Source of the DNA: Candidatus Babeliales bacterium
Lineage (GTDB): Bacteria; Babelota; Babeliae; Babelales; UASB340
DNA length: 35,655 bases
Direction: 5' to 3'
Assembly (NCBI GenBank): GCA_021735465.1
Contig: JAIPGX010000001.1
Coordinates: forward strand, 1-35,655
Every line of letters begins with the position of its first letter. Positions within the stretch are counted from its first letter, which is position 1. Below, one piece after another: positions 20,570 to 35,655 of the stretch. The translations under genes and the position numbers were made by a program. The notes under the pieces were generated by a model. The model was not told the origin of the DNA and searched no databases. It saw only the letters and a program-made list of their open reading frames with translations.

Positions 20570-21697
20570 ATGAATTTAAATGTTTTATCTATTTTTTTTA
20601 CCACAAAATTCGTTCCGCTTATTTTTACAATAATAGGTTTTGGCTTATTAATTACAATACACGAATTCGGTCATTTTATATTTTGCAAAATATTTGGTGT
20701 TTACACACCAACTTTTTCATTAGGAATGGGACCTAAAATTTTAGAAAAAAAGATAGGTACAACAAATTTTAGATTATCAGCAATTCCTCTTGGTGGCTAT
20801 GTAGAAATTGCAGGCCTTGCAGAAGTTGGAGGCCAGGGTGAACAAGAACATTCTAAATTGACAGGTGGTCAATCTTTTGAATCCAAACCATATTGGCAAA
20901 AAGCAATTATTTTATTGGGAGGTGTTTTATTCAACTTGTTATTTGCTTACATATTTTTCTCAATCATATATTTCTATGGCGTCCCAAAACAAAAGGCCGA
21001 CTTAATAATAAACACCAAAATCGAAAAAACTATTCAAAAAAAATTTAATATAGCTCCTGAAGACAAAATTATTTCTATAGATAATCAAAATTTAAGTTCA
21101 GACCCCAAAAAACTTATCCCGGTTTTGCAAAAATATTTTTTAAAAAAATTCACTGGTGCTGATATTATTCCATTGACAGTTTTAAGAAATAATAAAAATA
21201 TAAAATTAAATTTGAATTTCAAATCTGAAAAAGAACAAGACGAATTTTTAGGCTCGTTACAATTAAAAACTACGCCAATAGAAGGTCAGTACGAAAAACA
21301 TTCTCTTTTTGGAGCTATTGGAAAAGGCATTCAGGTTACTAACGGTTGGATTTTTAACATTATTTATGGCATAAAATGTTTAATAACAGAAAGAACGCTA
21401 AAAGGCGTTGGCGGACCTGTTATGATTCTTTCTAAAACTTTTGAAACTGCTCAAAAAGGCTTTTTGCCTCTGTTAATTTTTCTTTGCATAATCAGTATAA
21501 ATTTAGCAGTTTTAAATATTTTACCAATAGGTGCACTCGATGGTGGTCAATTTTTATTTGTAAGTGTTGAGGCTATAATTCGTAGGCCAATTCCAGAAAC
21601 AATAAAACTTGTTATAAATATAGGTTCTTGGATATTAATTTTAGGCCTTGTTTTATATTTATCCTACAAAGATTTGATGGCTATTATTTGGAAATAA
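20570..21697 (+). CDS. rseP: RIP site-2 metalloprotease, M50 family (RseP-like)
   Basis: 375 aa with HEFGHFIFCKIFGV (HExxH in TM1), a central PDZ-like segment, and the C-terminal LNILPIGALDGG (NxxPxxxLDG) motif. Confidence 0.88.
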   Translation: MNLNVLSIFFTTKFVPLIFTIIGFGLLITIHEFGHFIFCKIFGVYTPTFSLGMGPKILEKKIGTTNFRLSAIPLGGYVEIAGLAEVGGQGEQEHSKLTGGQSFESKPYWQKAIILLGGVLFNLLFAYIFFSIIYFYGVPKQKADLIINTKIEKTIQKKFNIAPEDKIISIDNQNLSSDPKKLIPVLQKYFLKKFTGADIIPLTVLRNNKNIKLNLNFKSEKEQDEFLGSLQLKTTPIEGQYEKHSLFGAIGKGIQVTNGWIFNIIYGIKCLITERTLKGVGGPVMILSKTFETAQKGFLPLLIFLCIISINLAVLNILPIGALDGGQFLFVSVEAIIRRPIPETIKLVINIGSWILILGLVLYLSYKDLMAIIWK

Positions 21698-31124: not shown

Positions 31125-31181
31125 TTAAATAAACTTTTTCAAATCAAGATTTTTTAAAAAAAATAATTTTGGAGAAAATTA

Positions 31182-31250
31182 ATGCACAAAATTTTAAAAT
31201 TAATTTTAACTTTATGTTTTATAATAAATATTAATACAAAAATTTTTGCT
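31182..31250 (+). other. Predicted Sec signal peptide of the giant protein
   Basis: MHKILKLILTLCFIININTKIFA|VDYGS has a basic n-region, a hydrophobic core and an I-F-A cleavage-type site. Confidence 0.6.
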
Positions 31251-34200
31251 GTCGATTACGGTTCAGACACTGCTGTTGCCATTACACCTGTCACTATGGC
31301 AACAGGCCAAGATAACATAATAAAATCTTTTGGCTGGGCAAAACATGGATTAACATTTGAAGATGCTATAACTACAGTTACTTTTCAGTCTGCTTTTCCT
31401 ATTGCTGGCCCCATAGATATGCAAGGTGGAAAATTTTATCTTGATACAGATTTAGTCTTAAGTAATACCGCAAAATTTCTATCCCTTGGTTCTATAGAAG
31501 GTTATAATCACATGCTCTCTCTTTCGGAGTCTACTACCAATATGCGATTTATTGGAACTATAGGTGATAGTGCAACTTTAAATTTAATTGCACGAGCAAC
31601 TGAAGGCAATACTATTAATTCAGTTGATTGGTCATATGATAATAATTATATTGTTGCTGGAGCAGATCAAATAGGTGGACCAGGAAATAATTTATTTATA
31701 TATTCATATATAAACGACATACTTACTAAAGTTAATACCACAGGCCTAAACTCAGCTGTATTTTCAACTCGCTGGCACCCTTCTTCATATTATTTAGCAA
31801 TAGGGTCAGATAGGGTCAATGCTGAACTAAGAATTTATTCTTTTACACCACCCAACACAACATCTTTAGAACAATCATATAATGCCGGAGATAATATATA
31901 TTCCACAATTTGGCACCCAACAGGTAATTTTTTAGCCTCTGGAGGTATTTCAAATACAGATACAATAACAATTTTTACTTTTTCTGCCGGAACAATAACA
32001 AGAAGAACGGGAGTCAATAAAACACAAGATATTTCATCAGATACTCTTGTTTGGGCACCATCAGGAAACGGTAATTATTTAGCCTCAGGCTTTACAACAG
32101 ATGGAACAAATCCAGAATTAATTGTTTATTTATTTAATAACACAACACCATCTTTAACTTCAACTGCACAAAAATTAATAAATCAAAGTATAACTGCGCT
32201 AGATTGGTCACCAACAGGAACATATTTGGCTGTAGGCCTTTCTGGCGGGAATAATAGATTAAGAATTTACGAAAGAAATATTAGTAGAGGAGCAGCATCT
32301 TCTTATGGCTATTTAGAAGAGGCAACAAGACTTGATGAAACTCAAACTGTAAAATCTGTGAACTGGTCAAGTGATGGAACAAAGCTCAGTGTAGGATTAG
32401 AAAATAGTACAGGAACAGAATTCAGATTTTATTCCTTTTCTACATCACCAACTCCAACCATAAGCCTTTTAGCTGGAGTAGAATCATCTACAAATATAAA
32501 TTCCACAAAATTCTCTAACGACGATATGTACATCGCAAATGGCGATTCTTCAAATTTTGTTTCCGTATATAAACCTATTTTAACAGGTTCATTTTATTTT
32601 AAAGACTTAAACATATTTTTGTATAACAATGTTTTATTACAAAGTCCTTTAACATTTGAAGGCAACTGCTCTATAGATGCAAGAGGCAAAACCTTAGAAT
32701 TATCAGGAAATGCAAGCTTAAATATAAAACCTAATTCTACAACATCAATTAAAAGAACTGATTTAAAATTAGATAATCCTGGAACTTTTGCGTTAGAAAG
32801 CAAAAGTTCAGTCTTAAAATTTGAAGACTCAATAATAGAATTAAGTTCTGATGTGACTATTGGAGATGGAGCTCTAGGGATAGATGGGGACTTGGTTATA
32901 ACGGGACCATATACATTAAATTATTCAACCGCAACTACATCAACAATAAACGAATTTTCTTCTTTAAAAATAGAAAATGAAGCAACTTTGGCTATAGGAA
33001 GAAATCCATCAATATCAAGGCAACCGTTAGATTTTATAGATGACACTTCTTTTTTAATATTAGATAATGCAACACTTAATATAACAAATTCCGGACTTAA
33101 TATAAAAAAAGGTAAACTAAAAACTTTTAACAAATCTATCATAGATATTGATTCTCCTGATAATGAGTATGGCTTAATACTTGGTGACGGAACCTTAGAA
33201 AATGATGCAACTTTAGAAATAAAATCAGGATCTGAATTATTACTAAAAAATGGCCCTATAGTAATGAATACTCTTGGCAATGAAAATTTAAATTTTTTCG
33301 CAGACTCTTCAAAATTAACTTTTAGTGATTATCAATCAAGCCTACAAGTTCAACGAAGATTAAATATAAGCACTGGTACAATTTCACCTAAAACACAAGA
33401 TAATATTTCAGTATCAGATAATGCGTATTTAAGCGTTAATAATATAAAATTTGTAGATCAATCAACTAAAGAAGAATTCTTTTTAACAGGTACCATTCAA
33501 AATGCAAATAATATAATTTTAGATCAAGACGATCTTTTAACTTTAAATGCTGGTAATTTATCAAAAACAATTACCGTATCAAGGAACAATAACACAATAC
33601 GTGGAGTAGGCGGTTTTACTGGTGAATTAAATTTAACGTACAGCATGGCTAATTTAATATTTAATTTGAGCCCAATTAATAATAACAATATAGATTTAAA
33701 TAAGAGCAAAATAATTTTAGAGAACGACTCTAATTTTTTAAGAGATTTCATTTTTACAAACAGTGGCACCGTTGATTTAACATATTACAAATTATCTTTT
33801 GGGGCACAAGATGCCTTACATACAAGTACTATATACTGGCAAGGTACAGAGGGAAAAATAGAATTAAATTCAAAATTATCTTTAACTGGCACATGGACAT
33901 TTAGAGGCAATTTTGTAATTTACGGAAATAACAACACATTAGATTTAGGCAGTAGCGGTCAAATTTTTTTAGAAGGTGATTCAAGTGTACAATTTAAAGA
34001 TTTAGCAATTCAAAATTTAAAAAACACAAATTTTAAATGCACTACAAATCGAGGACAAATAACTTTAAATAATTGCATTTTATCTCAAACTAATGACTTT
34101 AATTTTCCATATGGTTCAATAGGATTTATGAATCAAAACTATTTACAAGCAAAAAATAGTTCAAGTTCAGATTTTACTTTTTATTATGATACAACACAAA

Positions 34201-35655
34201 CAAGTACAATAAAATCAATTAGTAATCTACAAATATCAAATGGCATAACATTCAAGCTTGGCAAAAAAAATTCAGCCTCTACTGTGCAACCATTGGAATT
34301 TGAAGATGCTTCTTCAATTCTAGATTTAAATGGATGTACTCTACATGTCACATCTTCTGGTATGCAATTATTAAGAGGCGAAATGCGTATATCAGATAAT
34401 TCTACTTTAGATATAGACGCTGCCAACTATGATACGGGCTTTATTATTGGTGATGGCACAACTTCAGATAATGATTTTATTATAAGAATCGGTGGTGGTA
34501 ATAAATTAATAATAAATACAGGAAAACTTTTTTATAACAATGTAAATTCAGAAAATAAAATTATATTCACAAGTTTAGCTTCTGCAATACGAGTTGAATC
34601 TGATTTAGGCCTTGTCGCCAAAAAAAATCTAAAAATAGTAAATGGTACTTTATTATTTCCACTTGCTGATGCAATACAAACTTTCGATGATTCATTTTTT
34701 GAACAAGATAATATTACGCATATACATGATACCTTTTATGCTGTTCACAAATCAAAAGCGCAACTTAAGAAAAAAGCCGGCTCGTTCTTTCCTACTGAAT
34801 ATTATATTTTTGATACAGGTTATTTTTATAGTTTAGAGGGAGACGCAAGGGTCCCATTAAATGTAGAAGCTGGAACTACTACAATAGGTGGATCTGGATT
34901 AATAAGTGCTACAACTACAATCAAAGATGCTAATGCAAGTATTAATACAAATTCAACAGCAAACTATCAAAATAATATAATTTTAAATGGTGGCACTCTT
35001 TCTTTAGATTCAGATTTAAAATTCATAGGAAATAAAAAATTATCAGGCTCAGGCATTATCAATTTGAATAATAGCAGACTTTCTTTTGGAACAGACGAAC
35101 TAACTTTCTCAGATCCTATTTATTGGAATTCTTCTTCTGGAATAGATTTAAATGCAAAAACAACTTTGAGTACAACATGGACAATTAATGGTATTTATAA
35201 TTTAAATGGTCACGGTAATATTCTTGATATGAGCTCTGGTGGCCGCATAGAAATTAGACCAGACTCAACTTTATTCTTAACAGATATAGTTATTAAAGGC
35301 CTTGGCCATGGTTATGGTAGATTATTACCATTGGCAGATTCAGCACAAATAAATATGTCCAATGTTTATATTGAACTTGATAACGATTATTCTACAACAA
35401 TTGGTGGCATCTATGTCGAAGGGCCTACAACCTTTGGTCTTAAAAATTATAATTGGACATTTGATCAACAAGCTTCTTTGACTGTAGATGGCATAACTTT
35501 ATGGCAAGATCCATTAGATAAAATAAATTATGGCAAAATTAAATTTGGCTCAGGGACTTTATCAAAATATTTATCTTTGACAGAAAGTGGCACTATAAAA
35601 ACTTGTGCAAATCTTGATATTATTTCAACAAATACTCAGGCCCTTGCTATTGACA
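31182..35655 (+). CDS. Giant secreted/surface protein (3' end outside the window): signal peptide, 7-bladed WD40-like beta-propeller, and at least 3 tandem ~420-aa beta-helix-like modules
   Basis: I hand-translated the whole frame. ATG at 31182 has GGAG at 31171-31174 and an in-frame TAA at 31164 upstream. There is no stop through 35654, giving at least 1,491 codons. It is absent from the ORF track, presumably because it has no stop inside the window. Only short antisense or out-of-frame ORFs are listed there. Confidence 0.9.
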   Translation, partial: MHKILKLILTLCFIININTKIFAVDYGSDTAVAITPVTMATGQDNIIKSFGWAKHGLTFEDAITTVTFQSAFPIAGPIDMQGGKFYLDTDLVLSNTAKFLSLGSIEGYNHMLSLSESTTNMRFIGTIGDSATLNLIARATEGNTINSVDWSYDNNYIVAGADQIGGPGNNLFIYSYINDILTKVNTTGLNSAVFSTRWHPSSYYLAIGSDRVNAELRIYSFTPPNTTSLEQSYNAGDNIYSTIWHPTGNFLASGGISNTDTITIFTFSAGTITRRTGVNKTQDISSDTLVWAPSGNGNYLASGFTTDGTNPELIVYLFNNTTPSLTSTAQKLINQSITALDWSPTGTYLAVGLSGGNNRLRIYERNISRGAASSYGYLEEATRLDETQTVKSVNWSSDGTKLSVGLENSTGTEFRFYSFSTSPTPTISLLAGVESSTNINSTKFSNDDMYIANGDSSNFVSVYKPILTGSFYFKDLNIFLYNNVLLQSPLTFEGNCSIDARGKTLELSGNASLNIKPNSTTSIKRTDLKLDNPGTFALESKSSVLKFEDSIIELSSDVTIGDGALGIDGDLVITGPYTLNYSTATTSTINEFSSLKIENEATLAIGRNPSISRQPLDFIDDTSFLILDNATLNITNSGLNIKKGKLKTFNKSIIDIDSPDNEYGLILGDGTLENDATLEIKSGSELLLKNGPIVMNTLGNENLNFFADSSKLTFSDYQSSLQVQRRLNISTGTISPKTQDNISVSDNAYLSVNNIKFVDQSTKEEFFLTGTIQNANNIILDQDDLLTLNAGNLSKTITVSRNNNTIRGVGGFTGELNLTYSMANLIFNLSPINNNNIDLNKSKIILENDSNFLRDFIFTNSGTVDLTYYKLSFGAQDALHTSTIYWQGTEGKIELNSKLSLTGTWTFRGNFVIYGNNNTLDLGSSGQIFLEGDSSVQFKDLAIQNLKNTNFKCTTNRGQITLNNCILSQTNDFNFPYGSIGFMNQNYLQAKNSSSSDFTFYYDTTQTSTIKSISNLQISNGITFKLGKKNSASTVQPLEFEDASSILDLNGCTLHVTSSGMQLLRGEMRISDNSTLDIDAANYDTGFIIGDGTTSDNDFIIRIGGGNKLIINTGKLFYNNVNSENKIIFTSLASAIRVESDLGLVAKKNLKIVNGTLLFPLADAIQTFDDSFFEQDNITHIHDTFYAVHKSKAQLKKKAGSFFPTEYYIFDTGYFYSLEGDARVPLNVEAGTTTIGGSGLISATTTIKDANASINTNSTANYQNNIILNGGTLSLDSDLKFIGNKKLSGSGIINLNNSRLSFGTDELTFSDPIYWNSSSGIDLNAKTTLSTTWTINGIYNLNGHGNILDMSSGGRIEIRPDSTLFLTDIVIKGLGHGYGRLLPLADSAQINMSNVYIELDNDYSTTIGGIYVEGPTTFGLKNYNWTFDQQASLTVDGITLWQDPLDKINYGKIKFGSGTLSKYLSLTESGTIKTCANLDIISTNTQALAID
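31611..32576 (+). other. Seven WD40-like (WD40/PD40-type) propeller blades within the giant protein
   Basis: The repeating pattern is xxW(S/H/A)PxGxYLAxG...(L/F)RIYxF. Conserved Trp codons lie at 31629, 31773, 31911, 32052, 32205 and 32364, with Phe at 32511. The spacing is 46-53 codons. Confidence 0.7.
32640..35655 (+). repeat. Tandem in-frame protein-level repeats, about 1.25-1.29 kb (415-429 aa) per module, at least 3 copies
   Basis: The motif T(W)TFxGNxxIxGxGNxLDLSxxGxIxIxxxS recurs with its aligned Thr codon at 32652, 33897 and 35181. G(L/F)I(L/I)GDGTxxND recurs at 33183 and 34449. LS(F)G recurs at 33801 and 35088. Confidence 0.7.

What the first reader, a model, noticed from the sequence alone, without database searches (positions are those of the whole stretch)
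31415..32775. Exactly seven WD40-like blades that look like a domain inserted into the first copy of the repeat module
Seven consecutive units follow one pattern: VDWSYDNNYIVAGAD..LFIYSY; TRWHPSSYYLAIGSD..LRIYSF; TIWHPTGNFLASGG..ITIFTF; LVWAPSGNGNYLASGF..LIVYLF; LDWSPTGTYLAVGL..LRIYER; VNWSSDGTKLSVGL..FRFYSF; TKFSNDDMYIANGD..VSVYKP. Successive Trp codons are 46-53 codons apart, which is blade-sized, and seven blades is the canonical closed propeller. Modules 2 and 3 open with a ...LSFG motif (33690-33803 and 34975-35090). A weaker relative of that motif, MQGGKFYLDTDLVLSNTAKFLSLGSIEGYNHMLSLS, lies at about 31415-31529, upstream of the propeller. The partner motif (L)TFEGN..GKTLELSGNASLNIKPNS starts at 32652, just downstream of it. 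Those two motifs are about 30 aa apart in modules 2 and 3, but about 374 aa apart in module 1. This is what a propeller inserted into a loop of module 1 would produce.
Basis: partly seen in the sequence, partly recalled or inferred. Interest (0 to 1): 0.6.

Follow-up and report, generated by a model that had tools for sequence, protein, structure and literature searches.

The report
WD40 propeller nested in beta-helix module
A large secreted protein of a tiny intracellular bacterium (Dependentiae) carries a seven-bladed WD40 ring spliced into a loop of the first of its repeated beta-helix modules, and close relatives lack the ring at exactly that spot; the modules belong to a large family matched by no Pfam or NCBIfam model, probably used to interact with the protist host.

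Summary
Observation confirmed and interpretation supported.

**The gene.** ORF 31182-35654 (+) is cut by the contig end. It encodes a signal peptide, an about 98-aa "N-cap" (aa 24-121), a WD40 propeller (aa 129-467) and a beta-solenoid "body" (aa 471-760). Two more N-cap-like plus body modules follow, without propellers.

**The propeller.** Pfam WD40 scores 54.6 bits against a cut-off of 27. AlphaFold2 gives pLDDT 87 and pTM 0.85, with 28 strands, that is 7 blades of 4. Foldseek matches seven-bladed WD40 structures (E 3e-15, TM up to 0.85).

**The nesting.**
- Profile alignment joins the N-cap to the segment that precedes each internal body (98.7 %, E 1.5e-16).
- Internal module 2 aligns in one colinear stretch with propeller-less first modules of relatives (E 2e-49).
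- In 37 propeller-bearing first modules the N-cap-to-body gap has a median of 347 aa. In 83 propeller-less modules it is 5-6 aa.
- No internal module carries a propeller.

**Evolution.** Propeller presence is not one clade on the tree of flanking sequence (AU p 1e-41). That implies repeated loss or gene conversion.

**The family.** The module has no Pfam, NCBIfam or PDB sequence match, yet 2,322 cluster representatives carry it. All named relatives are Dependentiae/Babeliales.

**Limits.** Function is inferred, not shown: a secreted host-interaction scaffold.

The parts
31171..31174 (+). Shine-Dalgarno-like GGAG, 7 nt before the ATG
   Evidence: Read directly from the sequence.
31182..35654 (+). 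Whole ORF: 1,491 codons, open at the contig end. The same-genus orthologue has 1,846 aa.
   Evidence: The probable last 89 codons lie on contig C56 of the same genome.
31182..31250 (+). Sec-type signal peptide, aa 1-23 (MHKILKLILTLCFIININTKIFA|VD)
   Evidence: The sequence has a basic n-region, a hydrophobic core and an IFA cleavage-like site. AF2 predicts a helix at aa 2-18. Family members have equivalent leaders. No signal-peptide predictor was available.
31251..31544 (+). N-cap: the N-terminal subdomain of module 1, aa 24-121.
   Evidence: ncap HMM at aa 24-121, E 7e-48. It is homologous to the pre-body segments of internal modules.
31545..31565 (+). Entry linker, aa 122-128
   Evidence: Lies between the ncap and prop HMM hits. 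This is the lowest-pLDDT block near the junction, about 73.
31566..32582 (+). Seven-bladed WD40 propeller, aa 129-467. Strand 132-140 is blade 7 strand D (velcro). Blades 1-6 run A to D at aa 145-188, 193-233, 239-278, 284-331, 337-384 and 390-433. Blade 7 strands A to C are aa 439-466.
   Evidence: Pfam PF00400, 54.6 bits against a cut-off of 27. AF2 strand list. Foldseek against seven-bladed WD40 structures, E 3e-15, TMt up to 0.85. Blade anchors.
32592..33461 (+). Module 1 body (beta-solenoid), aa 471-760. It starts FYFKDLNIFLYNN...TFEGN.
   Evidence: Body HMM E 7.5e-128. hhalign to module 2 at 100 %, E 1.6e-49. BLAST of module 1 against module 2, E 7e-28.
33570..33800 (+). Module 2 N-cap-like segment, aa 797-873
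   Evidence: ncap HMM hit, E 2.8e-4, HMM positions 15-91. Profile-profile comparison E 1.5e-16.
33858..34718 (+). Module 2 body, aa 893-1179
   Evidence: Body HMM E 1.8e-55. AF2 model of aa 790-1230 has pLDDT 91 and pTM 0.90 and is all-beta. All listed Foldseek hits are weak (best E 1.6e-3, TM at most 0.36), most of them to right-handed beta-helix proteins.
34881..35093 (+). Module 3 N-cap-like segment, aa 1234-1304
   Evidence: ncap HMM hit, E 7e-8, HMM positions 23-93. BLAST of aa 80-113 against aa 1268-1301, E 0.035.
35148..35489 (+). Module 3 half-body, aa 1323-1436 (body HMM positions 10-120 only, as in all orthologues)

Best explanation
The gene encodes a Sec-exported, multi-module beta-solenoid protein of a Dependentiae (Babeliales) bacterium.

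Each module of about 415-430 aa has two parts: an about 80-aa N-cap subdomain and a beta-helix-like body, joined by a short loop. In the first module only, that loop (a median of 5-6 aa elsewhere) is replaced by a complete seven-bladed WD40 propeller of about 340 aa.

The propeller's first strand completes its last blade, so the domain would enter and leave the host module at one point (a nested domain). I infer that the rigid solenoid array acts as a stalk or scaffold. I also infer that the propeller is a protein-binding head displayed at its N-terminal end.

The protein probably works outside the bacterial cytoplasm, in contact with the protist host (adhesion or effector scaffolding). It would reach there by Sec, and perhaps by the type II secretion system reported for the phylum.

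Shown here: the signal-peptide-like leader, the WD40 fold, the module homology, the nesting site, and the presence/absence polymorphism among paralogues.

Inferred: terminus adjacency in 3D, the export route beyond Sec, binding as the function, and the host as the target.
For: Fold:
- Pfam WD40 above threshold.
- AF2 of aa 1-720: pLDDT 87, pTM 0.85, 28 propeller strands.
- Foldseek top hits are seven-bladed WD40 structures: CIAO1 TMt 0.85, TLE1, RACK1/Asc1, G-beta and a bacterial WD40, 5yzv.

Nesting:
- hhalign of propeller-less first modules against the window family gives two blocks, 10-129 to 7-121 and 133-399 to 471-738.
- Module 2 is colinear with propeller-less first modules, E 2e-49.
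- The N-cap-only profile test gives E 1.5e-16.
- HMM census: the gap has a median of 347 aa (range 329-369, n=37) with a propeller and a median of 5-6 aa (n=83) without one. No internal module carries a propeller.

Module fold:
- AF2 of module 2: pLDDT 91, pTM 0.90, with confidence of about 90-95 across the junction equivalent to the insertion site.
- All listed Foldseek matches are weak. Most are right-handed beta-helix proteins: tailspikes, polysaccharide lyases and autotransporter passengers, including Hbp.

Organism and family:
- Record titles of relatives name Babeliales, Dependentiae or TM6.
- The module profile finds 2,322 representatives.
- It is present in 64 of 201 genomes sampled from the phylum.
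- Paralogues sit in conserved tandem clusters.

Literature:
- Secreted WD40 and beta-propeller proteins are proposed host-interaction factors in this phylum (PMC4378268, PMC4776705).
- A type II secretion system is reported in all TM6 genomes studied (PMC4776705).
Against: - There is no experimental or contextual evidence for function. In this genome the gene stands alone next to yidC, and its 3' end is missing.
- No anchor, beta-barrel or known secretion tag was found in complete relatives. Localisation beyond the periplasm is therefore unproven.
- Foldseek matches for the module are weak: best E 1.6e-3 and TM at most 0.36. 'Beta-helix' is a fold-class statement only.
The contact between the N-cap and the body, and the adjacency of the propeller termini, were not measured.
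- The blades lack the GH and WD dipeptides, so any binding mode cannot be transferred from canonical WD40 proteins.
Confidence: 0.6

Rival explanations
1. Cell-envelope structural protein. The solenoid proteins stay in the periplasm or on the outer membrane and assemble into a coat or fibre. Products of the tandem paralogue clusters would co-assemble. The propeller would serve as an oligomerisation or anchoring hub, as periplasmic propellers such as TolB or BamB dock onto envelope complexes, and would not bind host proteins.
For: - Signal peptide but no recognisable secretion tag.
- Conserved tandem clusters mix propeller-bearing and propeller-less paralogues.
- A weak Foldseek hit to the S-layer protein RsaA sits among the beta-solenoid hits.
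- Very large copy number per genome, up to 84 first-look candidate stretches.
Against: - The family is patchy: 64 of 201 genomes, and absent from many complete genomes of the same order. That is unexpected for a core envelope component.
- This genome shows only one copy.
- Rapid paralogue turnover and pseudogenes fit a host-interaction repertoire better.
Confidence: 0.2
2. Carbohydrate-active enzyme. The beta-helix body would be a polysaccharide lyase or depolymerase like phage tailspikes, and the propeller an accessory binding domain.
For: Top Foldseek hits for module 2 include a Klebsiella phage tailspike (E 1.6e-3), the RbmB and FdlA lyases, and HK620 and Phi92 tailspikes.
Against: - TM-scores are 0.2-0.36 and identity 8-13 %.
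- No Pfam, NCBIfam or PDB sequence match to any lyase or hydrolase family.
- The invariant columns are mostly Gly, Leu and Trp structural positions, with no acidic catalytic pair.
- The module is repeated up to 14 times per protein, which is typical of scaffolds and not of enzymes.
Confidence: 0.07
3. No true nesting. The N-cap is an independent leader domain, and the order N-cap, propeller, repeats is simply linear. The likeness to the start of modules 2 and 3 would be compositional.
For: - Pairwise BLAST of the N-terminal motif against module 3 is only E 0.035.
- Confidence in the entry linker is lower, pLDDT about 73.
- Coordinates were not inspected.
Against: - Profile-profile comparison gives E 1.5e-16.
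- An N-cap HMM built only from first modules hits just upstream of many internal bodies across many genomes.
- Propeller-less relatives join the N-cap directly to the body.
- The module 2 model is one confident unit: pTM 0.90, with pLDDT of about 90-95 at the junction.
Confidence: 0.05

Closest known systems
Seven-bladed WD40 propellers (Pfam PF00400; e.g. CIAO1 6tbl, TLE1 1gxr, RACK1/Asc1 3frx, G-beta; bacterial example Thermomonospora curvata 5yzv)
   Same: Seven four-stranded blades with velcro closure. Foldseek E 3e-15 to 1e-12 and TMt 0.7-0.85 over about 340-360 columns. The Pfam WD40 model is passed.
   Different: - The blades lack the GH and WD dipeptides. The conserved Trp sits in strand A (DWS or RWHP), and strand C ends in Y-x-F.
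- The domain follows a signal peptide.
- It is nested inside another domain and is not a free-standing or terminal domain.
Beta-helical passenger domains with inserted globular subdomains, e.g. SPATE autotransporters (Hbp domain 2; 3ak5, EspC 9mne), Ag43, pertactin
   Same: An elongated right-handed beta-solenoid stalk from which a globular functional domain projects out of a loop between rungs. These proteins appear among the weak Foldseek hits for module 2.
   Different: - No C-terminal beta-barrel translocator in the complete orthologue or in the probable C-terminus on C56, which aligns to that orthologue's C-terminus.
- No sequence similarity.
- The stalk here is built from repeated modules of about 415-430 aa.
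- The inserted domain is a full WD40 propeller, which I found no report of.
Secreted WD40 and beta-propeller repeat proteins of Dependentiae/TM6 described as candidate host-interaction factors (Babela massiliensis, PMC4378268; TM6 comparative genomics, PMC4776705)
   Same: Same phylum. Signal peptide plus propeller. Expanded paralogous families in genomic islands. Proposed role in manipulating the protist host.
   Different: The parts of those papers I read list domain types only. They describe neither the beta-solenoid module family nor a propeller nested within it.
Classical nested domains, e.g. the integrin alpha I (VWA) domain inserted in a loop of a seven-bladed propeller (from general knowledge)
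   Same: A complete globular domain with adjacent termini sits in a loop of a repeat-fold host, and is present in some paralogues and absent in others.
   Different: The topology is reversed. Here the propeller is the guest and a solenoid is the host. There is no sequence relationship.

Membership tests
WD40 repeat / seven-bladed beta-propeller (PF00400) | Sequence match to the WD40 profile above Pfam's gathering score | tested here: met
   54.6 bits against a cut-off of 27. The orthologue L003 scores 48.9 bits.
WD40 repeat / seven-bladed beta-propeller (PF00400) | Seven blades of four antiparallel strands forming a closed ring | tested here: met
   The AF2 model (pLDDT 87) has 28 strands from aa 132 to 466. 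Foldseek gives TMt up to 0.85 to seven-bladed WD40 structures. Ring closure is inferred from strand order; coordinates were not seen.
WD40 repeat / seven-bladed beta-propeller (PF00400) | GH ... WD dipeptide signature in each repeat | tested here: not met
   Strand C ends IYSY, IYSF, IFTF, VYLF, IYER, FYSF and VYKP. There is no GH, and the Trp lies in strand A. Divergent WD40 proteins often lack these dipeptides (general knowledge), so this does not exclude the fold.
Type Va autotransporter | C-terminal beta-barrel translocator domain (PF03797) | tested here: not met
   No hit in the complete 1,846-aa and 1,951-aa orthologues. The orthologue and the C56 fragment end in a module body (...GILDYRNLGA*...GILEFRNINN*).
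Two-partner secretion TpsA (FHA-like) | N-terminal TPS secretion domain (PF05860) | tested here: not met
   No Pfam or NCBIfam hit in the N-terminus. The N-cap is homologous to internal module starts instead.
Chlamydial polymorphic membrane proteins (Pmp) | GGA(I/L/V) and FxxN repeat profile (PF02415) plus an autotransporter barrel | tested here: not met
   No Pfam hit in the window protein or in five relatives.
Pectate-lyase-like right-handed beta-helix superfamily | Three-faced right-handed parallel beta-helix fold | tested here: inconclusive
   All listed Foldseek matches for module 2 are weak (best E 1.6e-3, prob 0.92, TM at most 0.36), and most are beta-helix proteins. No sequence-profile match.
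Dependentiae solenoid-module family (unnamed; defined here by alignment A3) | N-cap-like segment followed within about 20 aa by a body with the conserved G..C.I.G.G, QPL.F.D and GDG landmarks | tested here: met
   The window protein has three such units. There are 2,322 representatives in the library.

The most novel reading that the evidence does not exclude
The solenoid-module proteins are the subunits of a so far undescribed extracellular attachment or invasion apparatus of Dependentiae. Products of the conserved tandem clusters would co-assemble: multi-module stalk proteins, short N-cap-plus-body proteins and propeller-bearing proteins. The nested WD40 propeller would be an exchangeable host-receptor-binding head, whose repeated loss and diversification tracks host range.
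Probability: 0.12. Interest if true: 0.75.

Novelty: new variant of a known kind. Interest (0 to 1): 0.5.

Why it matters
Dependentiae are widespread, almost uncultured parasites of protists, and how they attach to and manipulate their hosts is unknown.

This locus defines a very large protein family that matches no Pfam or NCBIfam model: 2,322 clusters at 50 % identity, with up to 14 modules per protein. It also shows a clean, datable case of domain nesting. A complete WD40 propeller sits at one fixed loop of a beta-solenoid module. It is present in some paralogues and missing at the same loop in their closest sisters.

That gives two things:
- a concrete candidate repertoire for host-interaction studies in cultivable relatives;
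- a natural experiment for how propellers tolerate insertion into, and excision from, repeat folds.

It also justifies building a domain model, N-cap plus body, for annotation databases.

Tried and rejected
- **Chance periodicity.** Rejected by Pfam, AF2 and Foldseek.
- **Autotransporter, TpsA, Pmp or lyase membership.** No profile hits in the window protein, in two complete orthologues or in three propeller-less relatives. The PDB sequence search with the module profile gave only a noise hit, reovirus sigma-1 at E 0.14.
- **A single insertion event defining one clade of propeller-bearing modules.** Rejected on the tree of flanking sequence: at least 7 state changes are forced by well-supported branches, and the AU test gives p 1.4e-41. 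The group was named after I had seen the tree, and gene conversion between tandem paralogues could mimic this result.
- **Correlation of propeller and flank pairwise identities.** Uninformative because of saturation (Spearman 0.11). The propeller tree does recover the same shallow clades as the flank tree.
- **Viral structure library for module 2.** Only weak hits, mostly phage tail fibres and tailspikes plus uncharacterised and giant-virus proteins.
- **Self-BLAST of the whole protein.** It printed no off-diagonal match. Piecewise BLAST was needed.
- **Literature searches** for a beta-propeller inserted in a beta-helix, and for Dependentiae plus beta-helix, found nothing. A Chromulinavorax search was unhelpful.
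Full report
**Locus and organism**

The window is one whole contig (C48) of a 0.9-Mb, 80-contig, 84 %-complete genome with about 31 % G+C. ORF 31182-35654 (+) has 1,491 codons and runs off the contig end. A GGAG lies 7 nt before the ATG. The gene is divergent from yidC.

Relatives fetched from public genomes carry titles naming Candidatus Babeliales, Dependentiae or candidate division TM6. One of the eight is labelled an uncultured Pseudomonadota MAG. The organism is therefore a member of that phylum of protist parasites.

The same-genus orthologue is 73 % identical and is a complete ORF of 1,846 aa. The end of contig C56 in the window's own genome encodes 89 codons plus a stop. They are 61 % identical to that orthologue's C-terminus and have the stop at the same position. 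The gene is therefore probably split by an assembly gap of about 270 codons.

**Checking the observation**

Every quoted peptide is present in frame.
- The seven blade anchors lie at aa 150, 198, 244, 291, 342, 395 and 444. Their spacings are 48, 46, 47, 51, 53 and 49 codons.
- The 'LS(L/F)(S/G)' motif ends at aa 115, 874 and 1303.
- The partner 'TF(E/R)GN / TING' motif starts at aa 491, 906 and about 1334.

**The propeller**

- Pfam's WD40 model scores 54.6 bits against a gathering score of 27. Several propeller-family models hit aa 134-464.
- I predicted aa 1-720 with AlphaFold2, using a 20-sequence family alignment (A2). The model has mean pLDDT 87 and pTM 0.85.
- Between aa 132 and 466 it has exactly 28 strands. 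Strand 132-140 comes first and is followed by 27 strands in A-B-C-D order that end with 7C at aa 459-466.
- Strand 132-140 stands four residues before blade 1 strand A. Every D strand stands before the next blade's A strand with the same spacing. Strand 132-140 is therefore the D strand of blade 7, the usual velcro closure.
- This closure would place the propeller's entry and exit in one blade.
- Foldseek against the PDB returns seven-bladed WD40 proteins: TLE1 at E 3e-15, CIAO1 at TMt 0.85, and RACK1/Asc1, G-beta, WDR61 and a bacterial WD40, 5yzv, over about 340-360 columns.
- The blades are divergent. They have no GH or WD dipeptides, and the conserved Trp is in strand A.

**The modules**

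- Piecewise BLAST gives module 1 (aa 486-758) against module 2 (aa 901-1181) at E 7e-28. Module 2 (aa 837-1018) against module 3 (aa 1266-1480) gives E 6e-19.
- Ten full-length orthologues are colinear, with conserved module lengths.
- AF2 of module 2 (aa 790-1230, alignment A3) gives pLDDT 91 and pTM 0.90. The model is all-beta. Confidence is about 90-95 across the segment equivalent to the insertion site.
- All listed Foldseek matches for module 2 are weak, with best E 1.6e-3 and TM at most 0.36. Most are right-handed beta-helix proteins: phage tailspikes, polysaccharide lyases, and the autotransporter passengers Ag43, EspC, Hbp and pertactin. The viral library gives the same picture.
- The modules have no Pfam, NCBIfam or PDB sequence match.
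- I therefore call the module a beta-solenoid. It belongs to a sequence family matched by no Pfam or NCBIfam model.

**Is the propeller nested in module 1?** Four independent lines say yes.

1. *Propeller-less relatives exist.* In L012 (577 aa), L011 (775 aa), L013 (1,259 aa) and a 357-aa ORF in L018, the N-terminal region aligns to query aa 1-127. It is followed immediately by a match to query aa 467-716. Profile-profile alignment of these four against the window's orthologue set gives two blocks: 10-129 to 7-121 (96.7 %, E 4e-10) and 133-399 to 471-738 (100 %, E 6e-69).
2. *Internal module 2 is colinear with propeller-less first modules.* I cut it out purely by orthologue coordinates (aa 760-1264). 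It aligns over 344 columns (its positions 38-401) with the propeller-less first modules (100 %, E 2e-49). Against the window's own N-terminus it splits into 39-119 and 476-757. The tool's own hhalign confirms the body block.
3. *The N-cap recurs before internal bodies.* An HMM built only from the N-caps of first modules hits inside the window protein at aa 797-873 and 1234-1304, each about 19 aa before a body hit. It likewise hits just before many internal bodies in 40 loci from many genomes. A profile of 24 such internal segments aligns to a profile of 59 first-module N-caps at 98.7 % and E 1.5e-16 over 82 columns.
4. *The gap sizes are bimodal.* In HMM coordinates, the N-cap-to-body gap has a median of 347 aa (range 329-369, n=37) where a propeller is present. 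In propeller-less first modules (n=25) and later modules (n=58) the median is 5-6 aa. No internal module carries a propeller.

The insert therefore spans aa 122-470. It lies between the strand ending ...MLSLS and the strand FYFKDLNIF. In module 2 the corresponding connection is the ten residues GAQDALHTST.

**Family and evolution**

- The module profile (A3) finds 2,322 cluster representatives at E ≤ 1e-3 among 1.84 billion proteins, and 948 at E ≤ 1e-30. Proteins reach 14 matched stretches and 4,562 aa.
- In a sample of 201 genomes of the phylum, 64 genomes (44 of 120 genera) have the module.
- Several architectures exist:
  - signal peptide, N-cap, propeller, body (about 700 aa; many);
  - signal peptide, N-cap, body (about 350-420 aa; many);
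  - an about 110-aa leader followed by N-cap and body;
  - multi-module proteins with a propeller (this gene) or without one;
  - rarer forms with propellers after a half body.
- In several relatives, for example L028, L029, L030 and L031, these genes sit in tandem clusters with a broadly similar gene composition.
- I built a tree of N-cap plus body from 94 modules. First modules separate from internal modules with SH-aLRT support of 99. Within first modules the propeller state is interspersed, with at least 7 changes forced by well-supported branches.
- Holding all propeller-bearing modules together costs 436 log-likelihood units (AU p 1e-41).
- The propeller-only tree recovers the same shallow clades as the flank tree. 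The propeller is thus inherited with its host module.
- The simplest reading is one ancient acquisition at this loop followed by repeated clean loss. Concerted evolution of the flanks in tandem arrays is the alternative. The root is not inferred, so the direction rests on the propeller-less internal modules and remains an inference.

**How it probably works**

Shown: a Sec-type leader, a rigid multi-module solenoid, and a propeller nested in the first module.

Inferred:
- The protein leaves the cytoplasm through Sec. It may leave the cell through the type II system reported in all TM6 genomes studied (PMC4776705).
- No barrel, anchor or TPS domain exists.
- The solenoid serves as a stalk, and the propeller as a protein-binding head directed at the host. 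This agrees with the view that secreted WD40 and beta-propeller proteins of this phylum are host-interaction factors (PMC4378268, PMC4776705).

Rivals are a cell-envelope or coat role, a glycan-degrading enzyme, and a merely linear domain order. The last is largely excluded by the profile evidence.

**Comparison with what is known**

The propeller is a member of the WD40 fold family, but a divergent one. The host module works like beta-helical passenger domains that carry inserted globular subdomains, such as Hbp of the SPATE group. It fails the defining tests for autotransporters, TpsA proteins, Pmps and lyases.

I found no report of a WD40 propeller nested in a beta-solenoid. The parts of the phylum's genome papers I read list only domain types.

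**Verdict**

I rate it a new variant of a known kind, of moderate interest. The architecture is solid. The function remains open.

Noticed in passing
G000 contig C56:5157-5426 (-), outside the window: 89 codons plus a stop (…GILEFRNINN*). They are 61 % identical to the C-terminal 89 aa of the same-genus orthologue, with the stop at the same position. This is probably the 3' end of the window gene, with about 270 codons lost in an assembly gap.
   Followed up: partly
L028 (G037:C11), L029 (G017:C3), L031 (G027:C1), L030 (G005:C27): Tandem clusters of family paralogues with a broadly similar gene composition: a multi-module propeller-less gene, an about 360-380-aa N-cap-plus-body gene, and one to three propeller-bearing genes of about 700 aa. 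This suggests that the products act together.
   Followed up: partly
L021:2122-5235, L041:850-2931, L040:3-3122 (coordinates on the strand of the ORF): Alternative architectures in the same family. One is an N-cap, a half body (HMM positions 1-187) and then two propeller regions. Another has propeller regions on both sides of a body.
   Followed up: no
e.g. L022 13304-14602, L024 7406-8968, L027 5689-7179, L032 6239-7762: A class of 430-520-aa proteins with an extra N-terminal region of about 110 aa before the N-cap and body. In the tree their modules group with internal modules and not with first modules.
   Followed up: partly
Hits to query aa 1226-1450 in about 1,200-1,330-aa ORFs, e.g. G002:C7:36788-37369, G009:C34:20575-21273, G007:C2:167624-168304: ORFs of about 1,200-1,330 aa in many related genomes share only the N-cap-like segment and the first about 120 positions of the body (36-45 % identity), as in the window's module 3. 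No such ORF was found in the window's own assembly.
   Followed up: no
C-terminal parts of orthologues L004, L005, L006: Runs of short NNSNA(I/L)-type repeats after module 3 (e.g. ITNNSNALLYGITNNSNALLYGIKNNSNALL). The run length varies between orthologues. The window's ORF ends just before this region.
   Followed up: no
G061:C3:19004-20221, G065:C1:241304-242344, G175:C13:35314-36318: Family copies with two to seven in-frame stops. This indicates ongoing pseudogenisation and turnover in the family.
   Followed up: no
window 31182-35654 versus the rest of the window: The giant ORF is one of only two + strand ORFs of 100 aa or more that look like genes in a contig otherwise encoded on the - strand (the other is 20570-21697). 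GC skew goes from about -0.25 to about 0 across it.
   Followed up: no
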